A stretch of DNA of 10,474 nt from a virus (IMGVR_UViG_2698536570_000004), one strand, 5' to 3'. Counted from the first letter of the stretch, positions 1 through 10,474 are shown. Numbers and translations are program-made. The notes: generated from the letters alone by a model not told the origin.

Positions 1-711
1 CTGACTGAGCCGCACTTCAGAGATGAAAAACCGTTTGACGCCATCGTATCTAACCCACCGTATTCGGTGAAATGGATTGGCAGCGATGACCCGACGCTGA
101 TTAACGATGAACGTTTTGCCCCGGCTGGCGTTCTGGCCCCCAAATCCAAAGCTGACTTTGCGTTTGTATTACATGCGCTGAACTATCTTTCTGCCAAAGG
201 TCGTGCTGCGATTGTCTGCTTCCCGGGCATTTTTTACCGTGGCGGCGCGGAGCAGAAAATCCGTCAGTATCTGGTTGAAAATAACTATGTCGAAACCGTG
301 ATTTCACTGGCACCGAACCTGTTCTTTGGCACCACCATTGCCGTAAATATTCTGGTGCTGTCTAAACATAAAACGGATACCAAAGTTCAGTTTATTGACG
401 CCAGCGAACTGTTCAAAAAAGAGACTAACAACAACATCCTGACCGATGCCCATATCGAAAAAATTATGCAGGTATTTTCCAGCAAGGAAGATGTTGCTCA
501 TCTGGCGAAATCTGTCACGTTTGAGACCGTTGTCGCGAATGACTATAACCTGTCGGTAAGCAGCTATGTGGAAGCGAAAGATAACCGCGAAATTATCGAT
601 ATCGGTGAGCTGAATGCTGAGCTGAAAACCACGGTCAGCAAAATCGACCAGTTGCGTAAAGATATTGATGCAATTGTGGCTGAAATTGAAGGCTGCGAGG
701 TGCAAAAATGA
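1..711 (+). CDS. hsdM: Type I restriction-modification methyltransferase subunit HsdM, C-terminal part (5' end lies upstream of the window)
   Basis: Frame 1 is open from nt 1 to TGA at 709-711. Translation from nt 1 gives [25 protein letters not shown]..., with the N6-adenine methyltransferase NPPY motif at nt 52-63. The stop overlaps the hsdS start (ATGA at 708-711). The 67..711 ORF in the track is the same frame starting at an internal GTG. Confidence 0.9.
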
Positions 712-1964
712 GCGAGTTAAGTTATCTGGAAAAATTGCTGGATGGGGTTGAGGTTGAGTGGAAACCCTTGAAGGATGTTTGTGATTTTAAAAATGGATTT
801 GCATTTAAAAGCAGCTTATTTAAAGAAACTGGGTTACCGATAGTCAGAATCACAAATATAGATGGATTTAATGTTGACTTAGATGAGGTGAAATACTTTT
901 CACTAAATGATTACAAGGAAGATTTATCCTCCTTTGAGGTATCTATGGGAAATATATTGATTGCAATGTCAGGTGCCACTACAGGAAAGGTAGGAATTTA
1001 TAAAAAAGGAACAAAATGTTATCTTAACCAACGGGTTGGGAAATTCATACCCAAAGAAAATATTCTAAACAATAATTATTTATACCATTTTTTATTGTTA
1101 AATACAGAGACTATTTATATCCTCGCCGGGGGCGGAGCACAACCGAACCTAAGCTCAAATGCATTGATGTCAAAACTACTCATCCCAATCCCTTGCCCGG
1201 ATAATCCGGAAAAATCCCTTGCCATCCAGTCTGAAATCGTTCGGATTCTGGATAAATTTACTGCACTTACCGCTGAGCTTACCGCTGAGCTTAACATGCG
1301 TAAAAAACAGTACAACTACTATCGCGACCAATTGCTGAGTTTTGATGAGGGTGAGGTTGAGTGGAAGGCATTGGGAGAAGTAGCCAAAATACAACGAGGG
1401 GCATCCCCCAGACCAATTGTTAATTATCTTACTGAACAAGGAAATGGTATCCCATGGATTAAAATCGGAGATACTATACCCGGCTCTAAATACATTGACA
1501 AAACCTTACAAAAAATAACTGCAGAGGGTGCCCAAAAATCGCGAATCTTGAACCCCGGTGATTTCGTCATTTCTAACTCTATGAGCTTTGGCAGACCATA
1601 TATTTTAAGGATAACCGGAGCTATCCATGATGGATGGGCATCAATCAGCAATTTTGGTGAAAAATTAAATGCTGATTATCTGTATCACTATCTTTCATCA
1701 AAAAAGGTGAAAAATTATTGGGAAAGTAAAATCAATAGCGGGTCGGTCAGTAACTTGAATGCAGATATTATAAAAACATTACCAGTGCCATTGCCTGATA
1801 AACAGAAACAAGAGCGAATATCTGCTCTGCTCGATAAATTCGACACCCTGACCAACTCCATCACCGAAGGTCTTCCGCGTGAAATCGAGTTGCGCCAGAA
1901 ACAATACGAGTACTATCGTGATTTACTGTTCAGTTTCCCAACACCTGAAACTGTCAGTAATTAA
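708..1964 (+). CDS. hsdS: Type I restriction-modification specificity subunit HsdS (418 aa), type IC-like
   Basis: ATG at 708 overlaps the hsdM stop. The protein has the HsdS architecture: two variable target-recognition domains separated by a conserved central region (...[33 protein letters not shown]) and a matching C-terminal conserved region (...[36 protein letters not shown]). The tandem TAEL repeat is the signature of the EcoR124I family as I recall it. Confidence 0.92.
1266..1293 (+). repeat. Tandem 12-bp repeat CTTACCGCTGAG x2 plus partial third unit (CTTA), encoding LTAELTAEL in the HsdS central conserved region
   Basis: Direct reading: 1266-1277 and 1278-1289 are identical 12-mers in frame with hsdS, and 1290-1293 repeats the first 4 nt. 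Confidence 0.9.
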
Positions 1965-2085: not shown

Positions 2086-5000
2086 ATGACTCATCAAACA
2101 CACACCATTGCTGAATCCAATAACTTTATCGTCCTTGATAAGTACATCAAAGCTGAGCAAACAGGCGACAGCTACCAGAGCGAATCGGACCTGGAACGTG
2201 AACTGATTCAGGACCTGCGGAATCAGGGCTATGAATTTATATCCGTAAAATCTCAGTCGGCTATGCTGTCCAATGTTCGGGAACAGCTTCAGAGCCTCAA
2301 TGGTGTGGTGTTTAATGACAGCGAGTGGCGGCGTTTCACGGAGCAGTATCTGGACAACCCGAGCGATGGCATTCTGGATAAGACCCGTAAAATCCATATC
2401 GACTATATTTGCGACTTTATTTTTGATGACGAGCGACTTGAGAACATCTATTTGATAGATAAAAAGAATCTCATGCGCAATAAGGTGCAGATTATCCAGC
2501 AGTTTGAACAGACGGGTTCTCATGCTAACCGTTATGACGTCACGATCCTGGTTAATGGCTTACCACTGGTACAAATCGAACTGAAAAAGCGCGGCGTGGC
2601 GATTCGTGAGGCTTTCAACCAGATACATCGTTACAGTAAAGAGAGTTTTAACAGCGAAAATTCCCTGTTTAAGTATCTGCAACTGTTTGTCATTTCTAAC
2701 GGCACCGATACCCGTTATTTTGCCAACACAACAAAGCGCGATAAAAACAGTTTTGACTTCACCATGAACTGGGCGAAATCAGACAACACGCTGATTAAAG
2801 ACCTCAAAGATTTTACCGCTACCTTTTTCCAGAAACATACTCTGCTTAATGTTCTGGTGAACTACAGCGTTTTTGACAGCAGTCAGACGCTACTGGTGAT
2901 GCGACCGTACCAGATTGCTGCCACCGAGCGCATTCTGTGGAAAATTAAGAGCTCCTTTACAGCGAAGAACTGGTCAAAACCGGAAAGCGGTGGGTATATC
3001 TGGCACACTACCGGTTCTGGTAAAACCCTCACCAGCTTTAAAGCCGCGCGTCTGGCAACAGAGCTGGACTTTATTGATAAAGTCTTCTTCGTGGTCGACA
3101 GGAAAGACCTCGATTACCAGACCATGAAGGAATATCAGCGTTTTTCGCCAGACAGCGTCAACGGCTCGGAAAATACCGCAGGCCTTAAACGAAATCTGGA
3201 TAAGGACGATAACAAAATTATCGTCACTACTATTCAGAAACTCAATAACCTGATGAAAGCAGAAAGCGACCTGCCTGTATATAATCAGCAAGTGGTGTTT
3301 ATATTTGATGAATGCCACCGCAGCCAGTTTGGAGAAGCGCAGAAAAACCTGAAGAAGAAATTCAAACGCTATTATCAGTTTGGTTTTACCGGCACCCCTA
3401 TTTTCCCGGAAAACGCCTTAGGCTCAGAAACAACCGCCAGCGTATTTGGTCGTGAATTGCATTCGTATGTAATTACCGATGCGATTCGTGACGAAAAAGT
3501 GCTCAAATTCAAGGTGGACTACAACGATGTGCGGCCACAGTTTAAGTCTTTAGAGACAGAAACTGACGAGAAAAAACTGAGTGCGGCTGAAAATCAGCAG
3601 GCGTTTCTTCATCCCATGCGTATTCAGGAAATCACGCAATATATTCTGAATAATTTCCGCCAGAAAACCCACCGTACCTTCCCTGGCTCAAAAGGTTTTA
3701 ATGCTATGTTGGCAGTGAGCAGCGTGGATGCTGCAAAAGCCTATTACGCGACGTTTAAACGGTTACAAGAGGAAGCAGCTAATAAATCGGCCACCTATAA
3801 ACCGCTGCATATTGCGACAATCTTCTCCTTTGCTGCCAATGAAGAACAAAATGCCATTGGTGAAATTTCCGATGAAACTTTTGATACCAGCGCAATGGAC
3901 AGCAGTGCTAAAGAGTTTCTTGATGCTGCAATTCGTGAGTATAACAGCTATTTTAAAACTAACTTCAGCACCGACAGTAACGGTTTTCAGAACTACTATC
4001 GTGATTTAGCCCAGCGGGTTAAAAATCAGGATATCGATCTGTTAATTGTCGTGGGGATGTTTTTAACTGGCTTCGATGCTCCAACATTGAACACGCTATT
4101 CGTCGATAAAAACCTGCGTTTTCACGGCTTGATGCAGGCATTTTCCCGCACCAACCGTATTTATGATGCAACTAAAACCTTCGGTAATATCGTCACTTTC
4201 CGGGATCTGGAACGCTCAACTATTGATGCCATAACGCTGTTTGGTGACAAAAATACCAAAAATGTGGTTTTAGAAAAGAGTTATGCAGAGTATATGGAAG
4301 GCTTTACTGATGCTGCCACTGGTGAAGCTAAACGCGGCTTCATGACAGTAGTTTCAGAACTGGAACAACGGTTCCCTGACCCTACCAGTATTGAAAGTGA
4401 AAAAGAGAAGAAAGACTTCGTTAAACTGTTTGGTGAATACCTGCGTACCGAGAACATCCTGCAAAACTATGATGAATTTGCCACGCTGAAAGCCCTGCAA
4501 CAAATCGATCTTAGCGATCCTGTTGCAGTAGAAAAATTCAAAGCAGAACATTATGTGGATGATGAAAAGCTCGCTGAATTGCAAACAATTCGTCTCCCTG
4601 CTGATCGCAAGATTCAGGATTATCGTTCTGCCTATAACGATATTCGCGACTGGCAGCGCCGTGAGAAAGAAGCTGAGAAAAAAGAGAAATCAACCACTGA
4701 CTGGGATGACGTAGTTTTTGAGGTCGATTTGCTGAAGTCTCAGGAAATAAACCTGGATTATATCCTTGGACTGATTTTCGAACACAACAGACAAAATAAA
4801 GGCAAGGGCGAAATGATCGAAGAGGTCAAACGCTTAATTCGTTCAAGCCTAGGGAACCGTGCTAAAGAGGGCCTGGTGGTCGATTTTATTCAGCAAACGA
4901 ACCTGGATGATTTACCGGACAAAGCCAGCATCATTGACGCATTCTTTACGTTTGCTCAACGCGAACAGCAACGTGAAGCAGAAGCATTGATAAAAGAAGA

Positions 5001-5202
5001 AAATCTCAATGAAGATGCAGCAAAACGCTATATTCGCACGTCTTTAAAACGCGAATACGCCACCGAAAATGGCACAGAATTAAACGAAACATTACCAAAA
5101 CTTAGTCCGTTGAATCCGCAATATAAAACGAAAAAACAGGCAGTTTTCCAGAAAATCGTCTCGTTTATTGAGAAGTTTAAAGGCGTAGGCGGAAAAATAT
5201 AG
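2086..5202 (+). CDS. hsdR: Type I restriction enzyme R subunit HsdR (1038 aa), type IC-like
   Basis: A 3117-nt ORF with an RBS. It has an N-terminal PD-(D/E)xK-like nuclease region (...[19 protein letters not shown]...), Walker A TGSGKT (about nt 3010-3027), a DEAH-type motif II as DECH (nt 3307-3318), and a TGTP motif III. Its length and co-linearity with hsdM-hsdS fit the EcoR124I-type HsdR as I recall it. Confidence 0.95.
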
Positions 5203-5218
5203 CCCAATTCGTATTTTT

Positions 5219-5246
5219 CTTGCGGGTTCTTAATTAAACCCGCAAG
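5219..5246. other. Stem-loop between convergent hsdR and a minus-strand small ORF (10-bp stem CTTGCGGGTT / AACCCGCAAG, loop CTTAATTA); possible non-canonical terminator
   Basis: A perfect 10-bp inverted repeat read directly. No U-run follows on either strand (TTTTT precedes it on +), so its terminator function is uncertain. Confidence 0.3.
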
Positions 5247-5281
5247 AGACCGTGGGGTTCCAAATGGCTAATATACTCCCC

Positions 5282-5368
5282 TTACCCATGCGCGACAATG
5301 CTGCCAAAAGTGATAGAGAACAGCCAGAAATAGATCGCGGCCATAATGATTTTGAATGCCGTGTTCAT
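5282..5368 (-). CDS. Candidate small hydrophobic protein (28 aa, MNTAFKIIMAAIYFWLFSITFGSIVAHG); small membrane peptide or type I toxin-like
   Basis: ATG at 5368 (minus) is preceded by AGGAG with an 8-nt spacer. The 28 codons are strongly hydrophobic and end at TAA (5282-5284). A possible sigma70-like promoter (TTGATA, 17 nt, GAAAAT) lies upstream on the minus strand around 5425-5455. A 41-codon ORF on the opposite strand (5264-5389) overlaps it, so the coding strand is not settled. Confidence 0.3.
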   Translation of the reverse strand: MNTAFKIIMAAIYFWLFSITFGSIVAHG

Positions 5369-5395
5369 ATCTTCAGCTCCTGTGATTGATTTGAT

Positions 5396-5430
5396 ACATG
5401 CCGCGCCCCTTGCGGCATGTTTTTATTTTC
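5396..5430 (+). terminator. Rho-independent terminator-like hairpin on the + strand (stem ACATGCCGC / GCGGCATGT followed by TTTTTATTTTC)
   Basis: A 9-bp GC-rich stem (5396-5404 / 5412-5420) with a 7-nt loop, followed directly by a T-rich run to 5430. On the minus strand the same hairpin would sit in the 5' UTR of the small ORF at 5368. Confidence 0.55.
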
Positions 5431-5456
5431 ACCTTCTCTGCTTTAAATATCAAGAT

Positions 5457-5469
5457 TTATTAGAGCAAT
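5457..5469 (+). repeat. 13-bp motif TTATTAGAGCAAT, copy 1; followed by TATTGCT, making the palindrome AGCAAT-T-ATTGCT (5464-5476)
   Basis: Exact 13-mer shared with 7599-7611 and, as reverse complement, with 7546-7558. It overlaps the stop codon of the minus-strand phosphatase gene. Confidence 0.7.
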
Positions 5470-5975
5470 TATTGCTGATGAAGAAGCGCGTTTTCATACT
5501 CCCTGACCATTAACGTAAGCACGCCGTGACGCCTGAAAACACGCGCCACTTCAATCTTATCTTCCAGCGCGAACGCAATTTTGCTTAGACCAATTTTCTT
5601 AAGGAGATCAATCTTTGCTGGACCGTCATTTCTGTCATCGGTGGCAGGACGCATAGATAGCAAAGGCTCATCCCCGTTTGTTACGTACTTTCGCAGCCAG
5701 GCTCATGTTTTATCCCTTGCGATCTCACAGCGCCCGGTTACAAACCAGACCGTGTAAACGTTATATAACTGGCGCACAATATCAATAACTGGAGTTATGG
5801 GAGTATCAGTGTCACAGGCGAGATTAAACTCGTTCCAGTCCTTTGTTAATGCACCTTTACCTGGTGGCGGAAGCAAATGCAGTCTGTCTTCAGTTGCCTC
5901 TGATATTGTTCCATCAATATCAACTATGACGATATACGGACGTTCATGGTGTGCGTGTTGGTTGAAAATACTCAA
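5469..5975 (-). pseudogene. HAD-superfamily phosphatase resembling phage polynucleotide kinase 3'-phosphatase domains, interrupted by an in-frame TGA
   Basis: TTG start at 5975 preceded by a strong SD (GAGGAGG). The N-terminal part has HAD motif I (IVIVDIDGT) and, from recall of T4 Pnk, a ...CDTD..TGR... segment. The frame hits TGA at 5703-5705 and then continues in the same frame to TAA at 5469-5471, with a DDR-containing C-terminal part. The track shows this as two ORFs (5703..5975 and 5469..5663) in one frame. Confidence 0.55.
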
Positions 5976-5992
5976 ATGCCCTCCTCATTGGA

Positions 5993-6029
5993 CGAAAAAA
6001 ATGCTGGTGGGACGCACTCCACCAGCATT
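5993..6029 (-). terminator. Rho-independent terminator for the minus-strand 420-aa gene (stem AATGCTGGTGG / CCACCAGCATT followed by a U-run on the minus strand)
   Basis: An 11-bp perfect inverted repeat (6000-6010 / 6019-6029) with an 8-nt loop. The A-run at 5995-6000 on + gives a T-run immediately 3' of the hairpin on the minus strand. It lies 20 nt downstream of the stop at 6049-6051. Confidence 0.65.
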
Positions 6030-6048
6030 AAAAGTGACACTGTAACTA

Positions 6049-7311
6049 TCAGCGAACGTAAATAGTACCGCCGTTCTCTTTTTCCCATGCATCGCTACGT
6101 GCATAGCAAACATCGAGAAGTCTTCTTGCCGCAGTTTCTTCTAAACCCAATTCAACAACCAACTGCTCATGACGGCGGGTAACTACATCAAATAGGCTAT
6201 GCAGCCCTTTATTGGCCAGTTCATCAATGAATTCCGGTTCGAACGGTAGCTCTGCATCTGCCAACATAACCTCTTGCGCCCACTCGACACGGCGGACCAG
6301 TTCCGGGCGGCGGCTTTCCATCTCTTTACAGATCATTTCATGGAAGAACTCTACCCAACCTTCCGGCTGGAACTCGCGGAAAATGGCCAACGGCTGGAAG
6401 TTTGGCATCAACCATTCGTTGATACGGATATCAATGGCATAGCCCATGTCACAGCAGAACTGATAAGCAAAGTCCAGCTTAGAAACGATATAAGGACGCT
6501 CGTTATTGAACTCTTTAGGCGATGAGATTCCATAAGCCAGGAGGCGCGGGAAGAATGAGATTTGCCCTAACGTCGGATGGAGTTTGCTTGCAGGAAAACG
6601 GCGCTCAGTAATGCCATACATTTCCTTCTTGAGCATCGCAAATTTAGCATTTTCATTAACCAGCTCGGTAACCTCTGCTTTTTTATTAGCAAATGCCACG
6701 CGCGCCTCGCTTGCATCTTTAATAGCCTTTTTGAGCTGTTGGTTAAGGTCGGCGACCTGCTTACGCAGTTCCTGGCGCTCGCTTTTGGCTTTGTTATAAC
6801 GTTTCTCAAGGTTAAAAGGATCAAGTTTCATGATCTCTTTATATTGAGATTTTAGTGTTGAAATCTGTGAATTCCGCAGCTCAACCATAGCGGTCATTTC
6901 ATTGAGTTTTGTTTCCAACTCAATGCTTATACGTTCGGCATTATCAGCACGCTGGTTGGCGTCATGCGTCGCATCGTCGATGGCATCCTGTTGCTGGCGT
7001 TTCAAATGCTCAATTTGCAGCTGAAGATCTTCAATTTCTTTACCCTTCAGACCGAGATCCAACTGCATATTTTCAGCTGCATCTACCAGGTCGTTATGGC
7101 TATCAGCTTCTGCGTTATAAACATCAATAAGCTGTGCGTGAAGCATCTCAGCTGACTGAACCGCATTATCAAAAAAACGTGCTGTGAGGTCATCACAACT
7201 AACGCGGCGTTGCGCGGCTCGGATGTTCTGAATAATGGCCGGGATACCGGCATTCAGGACGTCAGGGATAGATACATTTTCGATTGATTGGTTTTGTGCT
7301 GAAGTGCTCAT
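6049..7311 (-). CDS. Hypothetical protein (420 aa): N-terminal coiled-coil region of about 230 aa rich in Q/E/K/A, and a C-terminal globular domain of unknown function
   Basis: A long ORF with the ATG at 7311 one nucleotide downstream of the preceding gene's stop, and its own terminator after the stop. No catalytic motif recognised. Confidence 0.75.
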   Translation of the reverse strand: MSTSAQNQSIENVSIPDVLNAGIPAIIQNIRAAQRRVSCDDLTARFFDNAVQSAEMLHAQLIDVYNAEADSHNDLVDAAENMQLDLGLKGKEIEDLQLQIEHLKRQQQDAIDDATHDANQRADNAERISIELETKLNEMTAMVELRNSQISTLKSQYKEIMKLDPFNLEKRYNKAKSERQELRKQVADLNQQLKKAIKDASEARVAFANKKAEVTELVNENAKFAMLKKEMYGITERRFPASKLHPTLGQISFFPRLLAYGISSPKEFNNERPYIVSKLDFAYQFCCDMGYAIDIRINEWLMPNFQPLAIFREFQPEGWVEFFHEMICKEMESRRPELVRRVEWAQEVMLADAELPFEPEFIDELANKGLHSLFDVVTRRHEQLVVELGLEETAARRLLDVCYARSDAWEKENGGTIYVR

Positions 7312-7612: not shown

Positions 7613-8314
7613 TTATTCTAATTCTCGCTCAAAAAACGAGCTAATGAGGGGAAGCCAATCCTCTGACACTTCGCGAGGCCGCGGTTTGCCGTGGAAAAAG
7701 ATTATTCGGCAGTCCTTTGGTAATGTCCCATTCCCCCTGGAGTAACGCGCGCTCGCATATTTTGAACCAGGTTCCACAACATCGGCCTTGTAACTTACAA
7801 ACCATCCTGGATACAGATCCTGAAATGCTGGTGTGTCATCGCCCATAACCTTCCGCAAGAACCCCTGATCCCCCCAGCACTCAGTTGTAACACAACGAGC
7901 AATCCAACCTTCCGGATCTTGCCAGAATGCACTCCAGATATGCGCTTTTACACTATTTGGTATCCACAGAGCACCGCTGCCACGATATTGTGGATGGTAA
8001 AAATCCCTAAGCATGGTGAAGTTGGTTGGTGGATTCTCAAGAATTGGGCGTATATCACCGGCAATAACCGTGTCCAAATCCAGATAGAACAGATCATCGG
8101 TTATATCAGGTCGGAACAACTCGATTTTCGCCCACCAGCCACGGCACTTTTGCCACTGGTTGATTAATGGGACAACCTTAACGCCTGGCACATGTAAACG
8201 CTTCAGGTCTGTCAGGCAAATAATTTCATAGCCTTTTGGCAGTTGATTAACCAGCCACTGCACATCGGAAGCGTTATAGTCACCACCAGAGCGAAGAACT
8301 AAAGCAATCTTCAT
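7613..8314 (-). CDS. Hypothetical protein (233 aa), possibly a nucleotide-sugar glycosyltransferase-like enzyme (acidic LDLD, DxD-like motif)
   Basis: ATG at 8314 overlaps the upstream phosphatase stop (ATGA). It contains ...[13 protein letters not shown]... and a C-terminal ...[10 protein letters not shown]... segment. The glycosyltransferase call rests only on the DxD-like motif and is weak. Confidence 0.7.
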
Positions 8315-9003
8315 GCTGCACCATCACCTTTCACTTTCATCAATGTCAGGTTTCCGCAAAATACGGCACCAGTGTCGATATAATGCTGATTCCAGAATGT
8401 CTTCGGGCTTTTCACCGGAGTGTGACCAAAGATAAAACGATCTGCGCCCGAAATTTCGCCACCAATATCATCCATCGAATCACTGATACGCTCGCGCGCC
8501 CAGACAACGTTGAAAAGCGGCACCTCCTTACCGAATTGATATTCATTATCCGGATAGTCGGCATGAGCTATAACGATAGTTTCTTGCCCGGTGTTCAACT
8601 CAATGATATAGGGCAGTCGTCTTACCAACTCCACCAGCGCCCTGGCTAATATTTCCTGATCAGCGTCCAGCATGAAGAACCATTGACCGCCATTCATTAG
8701 CCAGTTATTCACGTTGCCATCAGGACTTAACGCATCAATCATCAGCCGCTCATGGTTGCCCATAACCGCTCTGAACCATGGCATCTGCAATAGCTCCAGG
8801 CATTTAACATTTTCGGTGCCGCGATCGATAAGGTCGCCGACCGATATCAGTAAATCCTGCGCCGGGTCAAAATCCACACGATGGAGTTCGGACATCAGTC
8901 TGGTGTAGCAACCATGCAGATCACCAACAACCCAGACATTCCTGTATTTGGTCCCGTCGATACGGTGATAAATTGTTGGTGCCATCATGTATTCTTCAGC
9001 CAT
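8311..9003 (-). CDS. Ser/Thr protein phosphatase of the calcineurin-like metallophosphatase family (lambda NinI / E. coli PrpA-PrpB-like)
   Basis: Metallophosphatase motifs GDLHG, GDLIDRG and GNHE, and a C-terminal ...[17 protein letters not shown]... The overall pattern matches lambda NinI-type phosphatases from recall. The likely true start is the second ATG pair (M6/M7, about 8985-8988), which overlaps the upstream gene's TGA. Confidence 0.88.
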
Positions 9004-10334: not shown

Positions 10335-10474
10335 TCACGCAGCGTACAACCACTTGTCACCGTTCAATACATGCTCAATAGCCTCACCCTTTTTAAGGCT
10401 CATGTATTCCAGGAGGCACTGTTGCAAATAGTCGGTGGTGATAAACTTATCATCCCCTTTTGCTGATGGAGCTG
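10335..10474 (-). CDS. Hypothetical protein, C-terminal 45 codons only (gene continues beyond the right edge)
   Basis: The minus-strand frame is open from the window edge to TGA at 10335-10337 (...APSAKGDDKFITTDYLQQCLLEYMSLKKGEAIEHVLNGDKWLYAA). No family recognised from this fragment. Confidence 0.4.
   Translation of the reverse strand, partial: APSAKGDDKFITTDYLQQCLLEYMSLKKGEAIEHVLNGDKWLYAA

What the first reader, a model, noticed from the sequence alone, without database searches (positions are those of the whole stretch)
5469..5975. Phage Pnk-like HAD 3'-phosphatase gene interrupted by an in-frame UGA, next to a type IC R-M system
The gene has a strong SD and TTG start, HAD motif I (DIDGT), and from recall resembles the T4 polynucleotide kinase phosphatase domain. 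The frame contains TGA at 5703-5705 and continues in the same frame for 78 more codons that include a DDR motif. This is either a recent nonsense mutation (for example TGG to TGA), a site of stop-codon readthrough, or an assembly error. In T4, Pnk with RNA ligase repairs tRNA cut by the anticodon nuclease PrrC, which is physically coupled to a type IC R-M system (EcoprrI), so a Pnk-type phosphatase beside a type IC locus is a notable coincidence, although no prrC is present here.
Basis: partly seen in the sequence, partly recalled or inferred. Interest (0 to 1): 0.6.

Follow-up and report, generated by a model that had tools for sequence, protein, structure and literature searches.

The report
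Nonsense-mutated pap phosphatase gene, P1-like plasmid
This is the phage P1 gene pap (a small phosphatase related to the phosphatase half of T4 polynucleotide kinase), knocked out by a single C-to-T change that turns an arginine codon into a stop; it is an ordinary pseudogene, already flagged in public annotation, and it lies beside the restriction system because of a known P1 insertion hot spot.

Summary
On the minus strand, 5975..5469, there is a 168-codon frame with a GAGGAGGG ribosome-binding site, a TTG start, DIDGT, and an in-frame TGA at 5705..5703 (codon 91).

The gene is pap of phage P1/P7 (93.5-97% nucleotide identity, same neighbours). It is a stand-alone HAD phosphatase of the polynucleotide-kinase phosphatase family: Pfam HAD_PNKP E=5.6e-12, and a profile match to the T4 Pnk phosphatase domain at E about 1e-9.

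Intact alleles carry CGA (Arg91), not TGG, so this is a C>T nonsense mutation. The 90-residue product lacks the residues matching T4 D254, K258 and D277/D278, so it should be inactive. There is no SECIS-like hairpin.

The allele is not an assembly error. It occurs on about 95 public contigs from one nearly clonal plasmid lineage, including E. coli AW1.7, where RefSeq already says "3'-phosphatase, internal stop". It is absent from about 350 other finished P1-like plasmids.

The neighbouring system is type IC: its HsdR is essentially EcoR124I HsdR. It fills the known pap-to-humD variable region of P1-like plasmids (Tyndall et al. 1997), and 216 complete E. coli genomes share the junction. There is no prrC.

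Verdict: ordinary and already known.

The parts
5469..5975 (-). pap pseudogene: 168-codon frame of the P1/P7 pap gene (stand-alone Pnk-type HAD 3'-phosphatase), TTG start, TAA stop, interrupted at codon 91
   Evidence: Translation. 93.5-97% nt identity to pap of P1 and P7. Pfam HAD_PNKP E=5.6e-12. RefSeq annotation '3'-phosphatase, internal stop' on the AW1.7 plasmid, which is identical to the window over this gene.
5979..5986 (-). Shine-Dalgarno sequence GAGGAGGG, 3 nt before the TTG start
   Evidence: Read directly from the sequence. P1 and P7 annotate the same start.
5703..5705 (-). Premature stop TGA (codon 91), derived from CGA (Arg91) by a C>T transition at gene nucleotide 271
   Evidence: Intact alleles (P276M plasmid, P7, P1, 06-00048 plasmid) have C at position 271. 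In 11 diverse homologues the residue is Arg in 7; the others have Ile (2), Lys or Glu.
5907..5921 (-). HAD motif I, D19-I-D21-G-T23; aligns with T4 Pnk D165/D167 (nucleophile and general acid)
   Evidence: D19, D21 and T23 are invariant in alignment A2. Aligned to the DVDGT of T4 Pnk.
5730..5738 (-). HAD motif II, T80-G81-R82; R82 aligns with T4 Pnk R213. This is the last catalytic element before the stop.
   Evidence: R82 is invariant and T80/G81 nearly invariant. Aligned with SGR of T4 Pnk and Pnkp1.
5613..5639 (-). D113-D-R115-N-D117-G-P-A-K121 block downstream of the stop; D117 and K121 align with T4 Pnk D254 and K258 (HAD motif III). Not translated in this allele.
   Evidence: D113, R115, D117 and K121 are invariant. 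Aligned with GDTRKDDVVK of T4 Pnk.
5559..5564 (-). E138-D139, equivalent to HAD motif IV (T4 Pnk D277-D278). Not translated in this allele.
   Evidence: D139 is invariant. Aligned with the DD of 'AIDDR' in T4 Pnk.
5453..5469 (-). C1 repressor operator (P1 Op88/OpmgT equivalent), abutting the pap stop codon
   Evidence: 16 of 17 bases match ATTGCTCTAATAAATTT; chance expectation is 0.09 per window. P1 and P7 annotate an operator at the same position.
5275..5468 (-). P1-backbone DNA downstream of pap: the operator, promoter region and a conserved 28-codon ORF. Homology to P1/P7 ends at about 5275, which is the right-hand junction of the hsd cassette.
   Evidence: Alignment of the window with P1 and P7. 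Records that have pap but no hsdR match only from window 5278 onwards.
2086..5202 (+). hsdR of a type IC (EcoR124-family) R-M system, convergent with pap
   Evidence: 2286 bits over all 1038 residues against EcoR124I HsdR (PDB 2w00). Pfam EcoR124_C E=1.2e-71.
708..1964 (+). hsdS, with two target-recognition domains and a central TAELTAEL repeat
   Evidence: Pfam Methylase_S, two stretches. Translation.
1..711 (+). 3' part of hsdM; the gene runs off the window start
   Evidence: Pfam N6_Mtase E=8.5e-61. Full gene seen in the AW1.7 plasmid.
6049..7311 (-). pmgS, the P1 backbone gene immediately upstream of pap in the same orientation
   Evidence: PHROG 1660 'PmgS-like' E=5.6e-193. Same gene order in P1 and P7.

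Best explanation
The locus is the pap gene of a P1-like phage-plasmid.

What intact Pap is: a 168-residue stand-alone HAD phosphatase, homologous to the 3'-phosphatase domain of T4 polynucleotide kinase.

How intact Pap probably works (inferred from homology): it removes 3'-phosphates from nucleic-acid ends. Asp19 would form an acyl-phosphate intermediate, Asp21 would act as general acid/base, and Mg2+ and phosphate would be held by R31, R82, D117, K121 and E138/D139.

What happened here: one C>T transition changed codon 91 from CGA (Arg) to TGA. Translation therefore ends after Thr90. The product keeps motifs I and II but lacks motifs III and IV, so it should be catalytically dead. The gene is a pseudogene.

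Age and spread: the mutation is young. The downstream frame shows no decay, and the carriers form one nearly clonal plasmid lineage that has spread to many samples.

The R-M neighbour: the type IC hsd cassette is an independent insertion or replacement in the variable region between pap and phd/doc. It has no demonstrated functional tie to pap.

Shown here: gene identity, the ancestral codon, the allele's distribution, and the positions of the motifs. Inferred: the enzymatic mechanism and the loss of activity.
For: Gene identity:
- 93.5-97% nt identity to pap of P1 and P7, with the same neighbours: pmgS upstream and the C1 operator at the stop codon.

Family:
- Pfam HAD_PNKP 46.4 bits against a cut-off of 27.6.
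- PHROG 415 E=3.7e-55.
- PDB Pnkp1 (4xrp) E=8.4e-5 with the single sequence.
- A profile of nine Pap-like proteins with no T4-type member hits 4xrp at 1.7e-15, the T4 Pnk phosphatase domain 5uj0 at 1.4e-10, and 1ltq at 1.3e-9.

Ancestral codon:
- CGA in the P276M plasmid, P7, P1 and the 06-00048 plasmid.
- Arg is the majority residue in 11 homologues; the flanking T90, W93 and L94 are invariant.

Lost residues:
- R109, D113, R115, D117, K121 and D139 are invariant and all lie after the stop. They align to T4 D254, K258 and D278.

Not recoding:
- The 73 nt from the UGA fold worse than shuffled controls, z=+1.5.
- No Rfam family matches.

Real allele, clonal spread:
- The exact 90-aa product occurs on 95 contigs.
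- Ten fetched loci from SRA runs, ENA metagenomes and an NCBI genome all carry TGA. Nine have an identical 507-nt pap sequence. Each differs from the window at 0-6 sites in about 8.4 kb outside hsdM/hsdS.
- Among finished sequences, only the two AW1.7 records carry it, out of 342 genomes and 353 plasmids that match the surrounding 61-mer.

Intact alleles are constrained:
- pN/pS is 0.04-0.28 in all well-sampled allele pairs, in both halves. Only the near-identical window-P276M and window-P7 pairs, with 3-4 differences, score higher.

Existing annotation:
- RefSeq already annotates it as pseudo, 'internal stop'.
Against: - No protein-level data exist. UGA is the leakiest stop codon in E. coli (general knowledge), so a trace of full-length R91W protein cannot be excluded. 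Position 91 tolerates I, K and E in homologues, so such a product might be active.
- The allele has persisted on about 95 contigs, so it is at least not strongly deleterious.
- Too little divergence has accumulated to show relaxed constraint downstream. There is only one extra change, A120E, in one of ten copies.
- A second 90-residue product on a different allelic background (P0004, 7 contigs) could mean the same nonsense change arose twice. I could not resolve this.
Confidence: 0.9

Rival explanations
1. Programmed recoding: the UGA is decoded, either as selenocysteine or by regulated readthrough with Trp, to give full-length Pap at a controlled level.
For: The frame stays open and undamaged for 77 codons after the UGA. 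The allele is carried by about 95 contigs. Position 91 is not invariant in the family.
Against: - There is no hairpin downstream of the UGA: MFE -12.4 kcal/mol against -16.8 for shuffles, z=+1.5.
- No Rfam match.
- Relatives 97% identical, with the same downstream sequence, have CGA.
- The TGA is restricted to one nearly clonal lineage.
- The base after the stop is G. From my memory of Poole et al. 1995, that is not the leaky context.
Confidence: 0.02
2. Sequencing or assembly error: the true sequence has CGA and the gene is intact.
For: A single-base difference from relatives is the usual signature of such errors.
Against: - The same T is present in two finished assemblies of strain AW1.7 with different lengths.
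- It is also in an IMG/VR contig and in ten loci assembled independently from different SRA, ENA and NCBI samples.
- The window itself differs from the AW1.7 plasmid at 17 sites in hsdM, so it is yet another source.
Confidence: 0.01
3. The truncated N-terminal fragment, alone or together with a re-initiated C-terminal fragment (TTG at 5663 or ATG at codon 108), is a functional protein with a new or split function.
For: Gene callers call both a 90-aa and a 61-aa ORF. A 64-codon TTG ORF, 5663..5469, exists in frame. PHROG 36358 is a family of roughly 113-residue N-terminal Pap fragments, so truncated forms recur in phage records.
Against: - HAD catalysis needs motifs I to IV in one Rossmann-like core (established knowledge). 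The break falls inside the conserved T-R-x-W-L helix.
- Pfam and NCBIfam find nothing specific for the fragment.
- There is no conservation of a split arrangement outside the clonal lineage.
Confidence: 0.03
4. Selected loss of function: Pap activity is costly in this plasmid lineage, for example alongside the type IC cassette or in its hosts, so the nonsense allele rose by selection rather than by drift or hitch-hiking.
For: - The allele is found on about 95 contigs from varied samples.
- A possible second origin at the same codon exists on another allelic background (P0004).
- pap is also seen truncated in other plasmids, as partial matches (H57-H60).
Against: - The carriers' backbones are nearly identical, as expected for hitch-hiking on one successful plasmid.
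- The type IC-pap junction is present in 216 complete genomes. Only AW1.7 among finished genomes has the stop, so the cassette does not generally select against pap.
- P0004 may be a contig-edge partial.
Confidence: 0.12

Closest known systems
Pap of bacteriophages P1 and P7 (P1_gp094; 'putative P1 acid phosphatase' / 3'-phosphatase)
   Same: Orthologue. It has 93.5% (P1) and 97.0% (P7) nt identity over all 507 nt, the same TTG start and length, the same upstream gene pmgS, and the same C1 operator at the stop codon.
   Different: Codon 91 is TGA instead of CGA. There are a few private amino-acid changes (Q6, H10, Y71). Downstream, pmgT-humD is replaced by a type IC hsd cassette.
Phosphatase domain of T4 polynucleotide kinase/phosphatase (PseT; PDB 1ltq, 5uj0)
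   Same: Same HAD_PNKP family. Profile E-values are 1e-9 to 1e-10 without T4-type sequences in the profile, and 4e-20 with one. Equivalents of D165, D167, R176, R213, D254, K258 and D278 are present in the reading frame.
   Different: - There is no N-terminal P-loop kinase domain: 168 aa against 301 aa, and no AAA_33 hit. By contrast, the Vibrio phage nt-1 PseT hits both Pfam domains.
- The residue matching D277 is Glu.
- Here the gene is truncated before motifs III and IV.
- No RNA ligase partner is seen in the window.
Bacterial Pnkp1 of the Pnkp1/Rnl/Hen1 RNA-repair system (PDB 4xrp)
   Same: It is the best solved-structure match: E=8.4e-5 with the single sequence and 1.7e-15 with the profile, covering the phosphatase domain.
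   Different: Pnkp1 is a 312-residue kinase-phosphatase working with a ligase and a methyltransferase. None of these partners is in the window.
Stand-alone Pap-like phosphatases of many tailed phages (PHROG 415; e.g. K1ind1 ORF18, Aeromonas phage LAh5 gp49, Krischvirus MIZ3)
   Same: Same size (about 158-183 aa), 30-40% identity, all motifs conserved. They are often annotated 'polynucleotide kinase' although they are phosphatase-only.
   Different: They are intact genes in lytic phages. Some sit between a metallophosphoesterase-like gene and a P-loop-like gene, an arrangement not seen next to pap here.
Type IC R-M systems EcoR124I/II and EcoDXXI on P1-related DNA, and the EcoprrI-PrrC locus
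   Same: HsdR is essentially EcoR124I HsdR. HsdS has the TAEL repeats. The cassette is flanked by P1 DNA, as the P1 record notes for the EcoDXXI and R124/3 flanks; Tyndall et al. 1997 made the same point (title read).
   Different: Unlike EcoprrI, there is no prrC between hsdS and hsdR. The gap is 121 bp (708..1964, then 2086..5202).

Membership tests
Pnk-type HAD 3'-phosphatase (Pfam PF25109 HAD_PNKP) | Profile score above the curated gathering threshold | tested here: met
   46.4 bits against a cut-off of 27.6, E=5.6e-12, with the stop read through (W was inserted at codon 91 for this scan).
Pnk-type HAD 3'-phosphatase (Pfam PF25109 HAD_PNKP) | HAD motif I DxDGT (nucleophile Asp and Asp+2) | tested here: met
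   D19-I-D21-G-T23. D19, D21 and T23 are invariant in 12 homologues and align to T4 D165/D167.
Pnk-type HAD 3'-phosphatase (Pfam PF25109 HAD_PNKP) | Motif II Ser/Thr followed by the conserved Arg (T4 R213) | tested here: met
   T80-G81-R82; R82 is invariant.
Pnk-type HAD 3'-phosphatase (Pfam PF25109 HAD_PNKP) | Motif III Lys and motif IV acidic pair present in the translated product | tested here: not met
   K121, D117 and E138/D139 are encoded in frame but lie after the TGA at codon 91, so the 90-residue product lacks them.
Pnk-type HAD 3'-phosphatase (Pfam PF25109 HAD_PNKP) | Sequence homology to a solved Pnk phosphatase domain | tested here: met
   A profile without T4-type members hits 4xrp at 1.7e-15, 5uj0 at 1.4e-10 and 1ltq at 1.3e-9. 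No 3D model was built.
Pnk-type HAD 3'-phosphatase (Pfam PF25109 HAD_PNKP) | 3'-phosphatase activity on nucleic-acid ends | not testable with these tools
   I found no experimental data on P1 Pap. The P1 record says only 'putative acid phosphatase'.
Bifunctional T4-type polynucleotide kinase/phosphatase (PseT) | N-terminal P-loop 5'-kinase domain fused to the phosphatase | tested here: not met
   The frame has only 168 codons and gives no AAA_33 or kinase hit. A genuine PseT (Vibrio phage nt-1, 301 aa) hits both AAA_33 and HAD_PNKP.
P1/P7 pap orthologue | High identity over the full length plus conserved synteny (pmgR-pmgS-pap-C1 operator) | tested here: met
   93.5-97% nt identity. pmgS and pmgR lie upstream. 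The operator is at the stop codon.
Type IC restriction-modification (EcoR124 family) | HsdR of the EcoR124 type with the EcoR124_C domain; hsdM-hsdS-hsdR gene order; HsdS central TAEL repeats | tested here: met
   2286 bits, full length, against 2w00. EcoR124_C E=1.2e-71. TAELTAEL in HsdS.
prr locus (EcoprrI with anticodon nuclease PrrC) | prrC gene embedded between hsdS and hsdR | tested here: not met
   hsdS ends at 1964 and hsdR starts at 2086. Of the ten window ORFs scanned with Pfam, none has a PrrC-type domain.
Programmed UGA recoding (selenocysteine or regulated readthrough) | Stable stem-loop just downstream of the UGA, and conservation of the UGA among relatives | tested here: not met
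   The region folds worse than shuffles, z=+1.5. No Rfam hit. Relatives have CGA. The UGA is confined to one clonal lineage.

The most novel reading that the evidence does not exclude
The same Arg91 CGA>TGA change may have arisen at least twice. The window allele is on about 95 contigs, and a second 90-residue product sits on a different pap background on 7 contigs. If so, it may persist because loss or strong down-tuning of Pap is advantageous in these P1-like plasmids, with residual UGA readthrough as the source of any remaining protein. That would be the first phenotype-linked clue to the unknown role of this widespread stand-alone Pnk-type phosphatase of phages.
Probability: 0.05. Interest if true: 0.35.

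Novelty: already known. Interest (0 to 1): 0.08.

Why it matters
It matters little. The result corrects an over-reading. The stop codon is a plain nonsense mutation, CGA to TGA, in a known P1 backbone gene, and RefSeq already marks it as a pseudogene. The neighbouring type IC restriction system sits in a P1 variable region that has been documented since 1997, so the adjacency is not evidence of a Pnk/PrrC-style repair-versus-defence pairing.

Two minor points have some use:
- Many phage genes labelled 'polynucleotide kinase' are phosphatase-only proteins.
- The biological role of P1 Pap is still untested. This naturally occurring null allele, in a widely spread plasmid lineage, shows that pap is dispensable for plasmid maintenance.

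Tried and rejected
1. Plus-strand reading of 5469-5975: full of stops, so the gene is on the minus strand.

2. TGG>TGA origin: rejected, because intact alleles have CGA.

3. 'Private to strain AW1.7': this was my first conclusion, from finished genomes and plasmids. An exact-protein look-up overturned it: 95 contigs, with ten loci checked.

4. SECIS or readthrough element: the RNA fold is weaker than shuffles and Rfam is empty.

5. NCBIfam scan of full-length and truncated Pap: no hit.

6. Second TGA lineage (P0004):
   - A 61-mer carrying TGA on the alternative background has no exact match in complete E. coli genomes or in PLSDB.
   - JGI metagenomes have no match to the TGA 25-mer.
   - IMG/VR has one match, identical to the window allele.
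   - Left unresolved.

7. Łobocka et al. 2004 (the P1 genome paper) is not held in the library. I used the P1 GenBank annotation instead.

8. Search for a kinase or ligase partner: the Pfam scan of the window ORFs found none. A Pfam scan of P1 pmgT, pmgU and pmgV also found nothing.

9. No 3D model was built.

Full report
**Observation**

The plus-strand translation of 5469-5975 is full of stops. The feature is on the minus strand.
- A GAGGAGGG ribosome-binding site lies at 5986..5979, followed 3 nt later by TTG at 5975..5973.
- The frame reads MSIFNQHAHHERPYIVIVDIDGT... and has DIDGT at codons 19-23.
- TGA is at 5705..5703, which is codon 91.
- The same frame then continues for 77 sense codons, including DDRND at 113-117, to TAA at 5471..5469.

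**What the gene is**

The 801 bases around the gene (window 5300-6100) are 100% identical to two finished plasmids of E. coli strain AW1.7. There NCBI's pipeline annotates exactly this frame as '3'-phosphatase', pseudo, 'internal stop'.

Against phage records, the 507 nt match the gene pap of P7 (97.0%) and P1 (93.5-93.7%) over their full length.

The neighbours are the P1 backbone genes:
- pmgS, pmgR, pmgQ, ppp, pmgP and pmgO lie upstream in the same orientation.
- A C1-repressor operator abuts the pap stop codon, as in P1 (Op88/OpmgT). It matches 16 of 17 bases, with a chance expectation of 0.09 per window.

The window is therefore a piece of a P1-like phage-plasmid.

**Family**

With the stop read through, the protein gives these matches:
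- Pfam PF25109 'Polynucleotide kinase PNKP phosphatase domain': 46.4 bits against a gathering cut-off of 27.6, E=5.6e-12.
- PHROG 415 'polynucleotide kinase': E=3.7e-55.
- tblastn finds relatives in 1180 phage records.

The relatives I fetched are 158-183-residue phosphatase-only proteins, even where they are labelled 'polynucleotide kinase'.

The best solved relative by single-sequence search is bacterial Pnkp1 (4xrp, E=8.4e-5). A profile of nine Pap-like proteins that contains no T4-type Pnk gives:
- 4xrp at 1.7e-15;
- the isolated T4 Pnk phosphatase domain 5uj0 at 1.4e-10;
- full-length T4 Pnk 1ltq at 1.3e-9, matching only its C-terminal phosphatase half.

Adding a true PseT (Vibrio phage nt-1) raises these to about 1e-20.

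The alignment places Pap residues on T4 Pnk residues as follows:

| Pap | T4 Pnk |
|---|---|
| D19 / D21 | D165 / D167 |
| R31 | R176 |
| R82 | R213 |
| D117 | D254 |
| K121 | K258 |
| E138 / D139 | D277 / D278 |

That these T4 residues are essential is my recollection of the Shuman laboratory's mutagenesis. I did not check it here.

Pap has no kinase domain. It gives no AAA_33 hit, whereas the nt-1 PseT hits both AAA_33 and HAD_PNKP.

So 'Pnk-like HAD 3'-phosphatase' is supported, with the qualifier that Pap is the phosphatase half only.

**Which residue the TGA replaces**

The P276M plasmid allele differs at 9 of 507 nt. Like P7, P1 and the 06-00048 plasmid, it has C at gene position 271, giving CGA (Arg).

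In an alignment of the window frame with 11 homologues down to 27% identity, the position is Arg in 7. The others have Ile (2), Lys or Glu. The flanking T90, W93 and L94 are invariant.

The change is therefore a C>T transition, Arg91 to stop. It is not TGG>TGA.

**Consequence**

The residues R109, D113, R115, D117, K121, D139, V143, R148 and V157 are invariant and all lie after the stop. The 90-residue product keeps motifs I and II but lacks the motif III lysine and the motif IV acidic residue. HAD phosphatases need these to bind Mg2+ and phosphate (established knowledge of the superfamily). Loss of activity is inferred, not measured.

An in-frame TTG (5663) and an ATG (codon 108) could give a C-terminal fragment, and gene callers do call a 61-residue ORF there. 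That fragment has no nucleophile.

**Is the UGA recoded?**

- The 73 nt starting at the UGA fold to only -12.4 kcal/mol, against -16.8 +/- 2.9 for shuffles (z=+1.5). There is no SECIS-like hairpin.
- Rfam finds nothing in the whole window.
- Close relatives with the same downstream sequence simply have CGA.
- The base after the stop is G.

Nothing suggests programmed recoding. Background leakage of UGA cannot be excluded.

**Is it an error, and how widespread is it?**

Among finished sequences, the 61-mer centred on the TGA is exact only in the two AW1.7 records, out of 342 genomes and 353 plasmids that match it.

An exact-sequence look-up changed the picture:
- The 90-residue product occurs on 95 contigs, and the 61-residue downstream ORF on 133.
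- For comparison, single intact alleles occur on 147-748 contigs each.
- Ten loci from SRA assemblies, ENA gut metagenomes and an NCBI genome all carry TGA.
- Nine have a pap sequence identical to the window. The tenth has one further change, C359A = A120E, after the stop.
- Outside hsdM and hsdS, each of these loci differs from the window at only 0-6 sites in about 8.4 kb.
- Their hsdS genes vary in length: 418, 421, 422 and 343 codons.
- The window itself differs from the AW1.7 plasmid at 17 sites, all within 169-558 in hsdM.

So the allele is real, young, and carried by one successful, nearly clonal plasmid lineage.

Allele comparisons give pN/pS of 0.04-0.28 in all well-sampled pairs, in both halves of the gene. 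Only the near-identical window-P276M and window-P7 pairs, with 3-4 differences, score higher. The intact gene is therefore constrained, and the stop has not been followed by visible decay.

A second 90-residue protein on a different pap background (P0004, 7 contigs) might be an independent occurrence or a contig-edge partial. I could not fetch its contigs. No such allele exists in finished E. coli genomes or in PLSDB.

**The type IC neighbour**

- HsdR (2086-5202) matches EcoR124I HsdR (2w00) over all 1038 residues with 2286 bits.
- Pfam finds EcoR124_C, and finds Methylase_S and N6_Mtase in the two upstream genes.
- HsdS carries TAELTAEL.
- The hsdS-hsdR gap is 121 bp and has no prrC.

In the AW1.7 plasmid the gene order is doc-phd-hsdM-hsdS-hsdR, followed by pap-pmgS on the opposite strand. 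In P1 the interval between pap and phd holds pmgT-humD, and P7 has yet other genes there.

Homology to P1/P7 on the pap side ends at about window 5275.

The P1 GenBank record itself notes that the DNA just after pap, and the DNA at phd/doc, match the flanks of the EcoDXXI and R124/3 hsd loci. This is the subject of Tyndall et al. 1997, Mol Microbiol 23:729; I read its title in the reference list of PMC12707154.

The interval also appears in the literature as:
- 'RD-5, between pap and lxr', with a type I R-M system acquired in pSvP1 (PMC6906374);
- 'variable region 8, pmgT-humD' (PMC9603915).

The same hsdR-pap junction is present in 216 of 5426 complete E. coli genomes. Of the finished genomes carrying the codon-91 region, only AW1.7 has the stop. 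The adjacency is thus a known hot-spot effect, not a Pnk/PrrC-style functional pairing.

**Verdict**

The feature is a plain nonsense pseudogene of a known P1 gene. It is already annotated as such, and it lies next to a type IC cassette whose position has been understood for decades. Interest is low.

Noticed in passing
window 5282-5368 (-): There is a 28-codon hydrophobic ORF (MNTAFKIIMAAIYFWLFSITFGSIVAHG) with an AGGAG ribosome-binding site. It lies between the C1-controlled promoter after pap and the hsd junction. It is conserved in P1 and P7, with 1 non-synonymous and 2 synonymous differences, but is not annotated in the P1, P7 or AW1.7 plasmid records. P1 homology ends right after its stop codon. 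It has no PHROG hit.
   Followed up: partly
window 6000-6029 (-): A terminator-like hairpin (11-bp stem, then TTTTTCGTCC) sits between pmgS and the pap ribosome-binding site. pap may therefore be expressed only by transcription that reads through this hairpin from the pmgR-pmgS operon.
   Followed up: no
window 169-558 (+), and hsdS in loci L013-L022: All 17 differences between the window and the AW1.7 plasmid cluster in a 390-nt stretch of hsdM. Within the otherwise clonal TGA lineage, hsdS is 418, 421, 422 or 343 codons long. The R-M specificity genes are being shuffled on a fixed backbone.
   Followed up: partly
window 10416-10474 (+): The left end of IS26 (GGCACTGTTGCAAA...) truncates the P1 gene pmgM (VRR-NUC domain protein). 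This 58-nt end accounts for the thousands of extra BLAST matches to the full window.
   Followed up: partly
L006 365-2531 (phage K1ind1); L011 479-2642 (Aeromonas phage LAh5): In unrelated lytic phages, the stand-alone Pap-like phosphatase sits between a weak metallophosphoesterase-like gene and a downstream ATP-binding gene. That downstream gene gives only a weak AAA_18 Pfam hit in K1ind1; in LAh5 it gives no Pfam hit and is annotated 'putative ATP-binding protein'. This could be a split end-healing module. In P1-like elements, a metallophosphoesterase (ppp, window 8311-9003) lies three genes upstream of pap.
   Followed up: partly
protein P0004 (90 aa) and P0026 (61 aa): A second pair of N- and C-terminal Pap fragments sits on a different allelic background, on 7 and 4 contigs. 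It may be an independent stop at the same codon 91, or a recurrent contig break. No matching allele exists in finished genomes or plasmids.
   Followed up: partly
window 5207-5250 (both strands): A perfect 11-bp inverted repeat (TCTTGCGGGTT ... AACCCGCAAGA) lies just after the hsdR stop, in the cassette-specific DNA next to the P1 junction. I saw it by eye in the alignment, and its role is unknown. A separate terminator-like hairpin with a T-run is at 5396-5420 (+).
   Followed up: no
PHROG 36358: A PHROG family of about 113 residues matches only Pap residues 1-111 (E=1e-71). Truncated pap genes therefore recur in deposited phage genomes, which is consistent with pap being dispensable.
   Followed up: no
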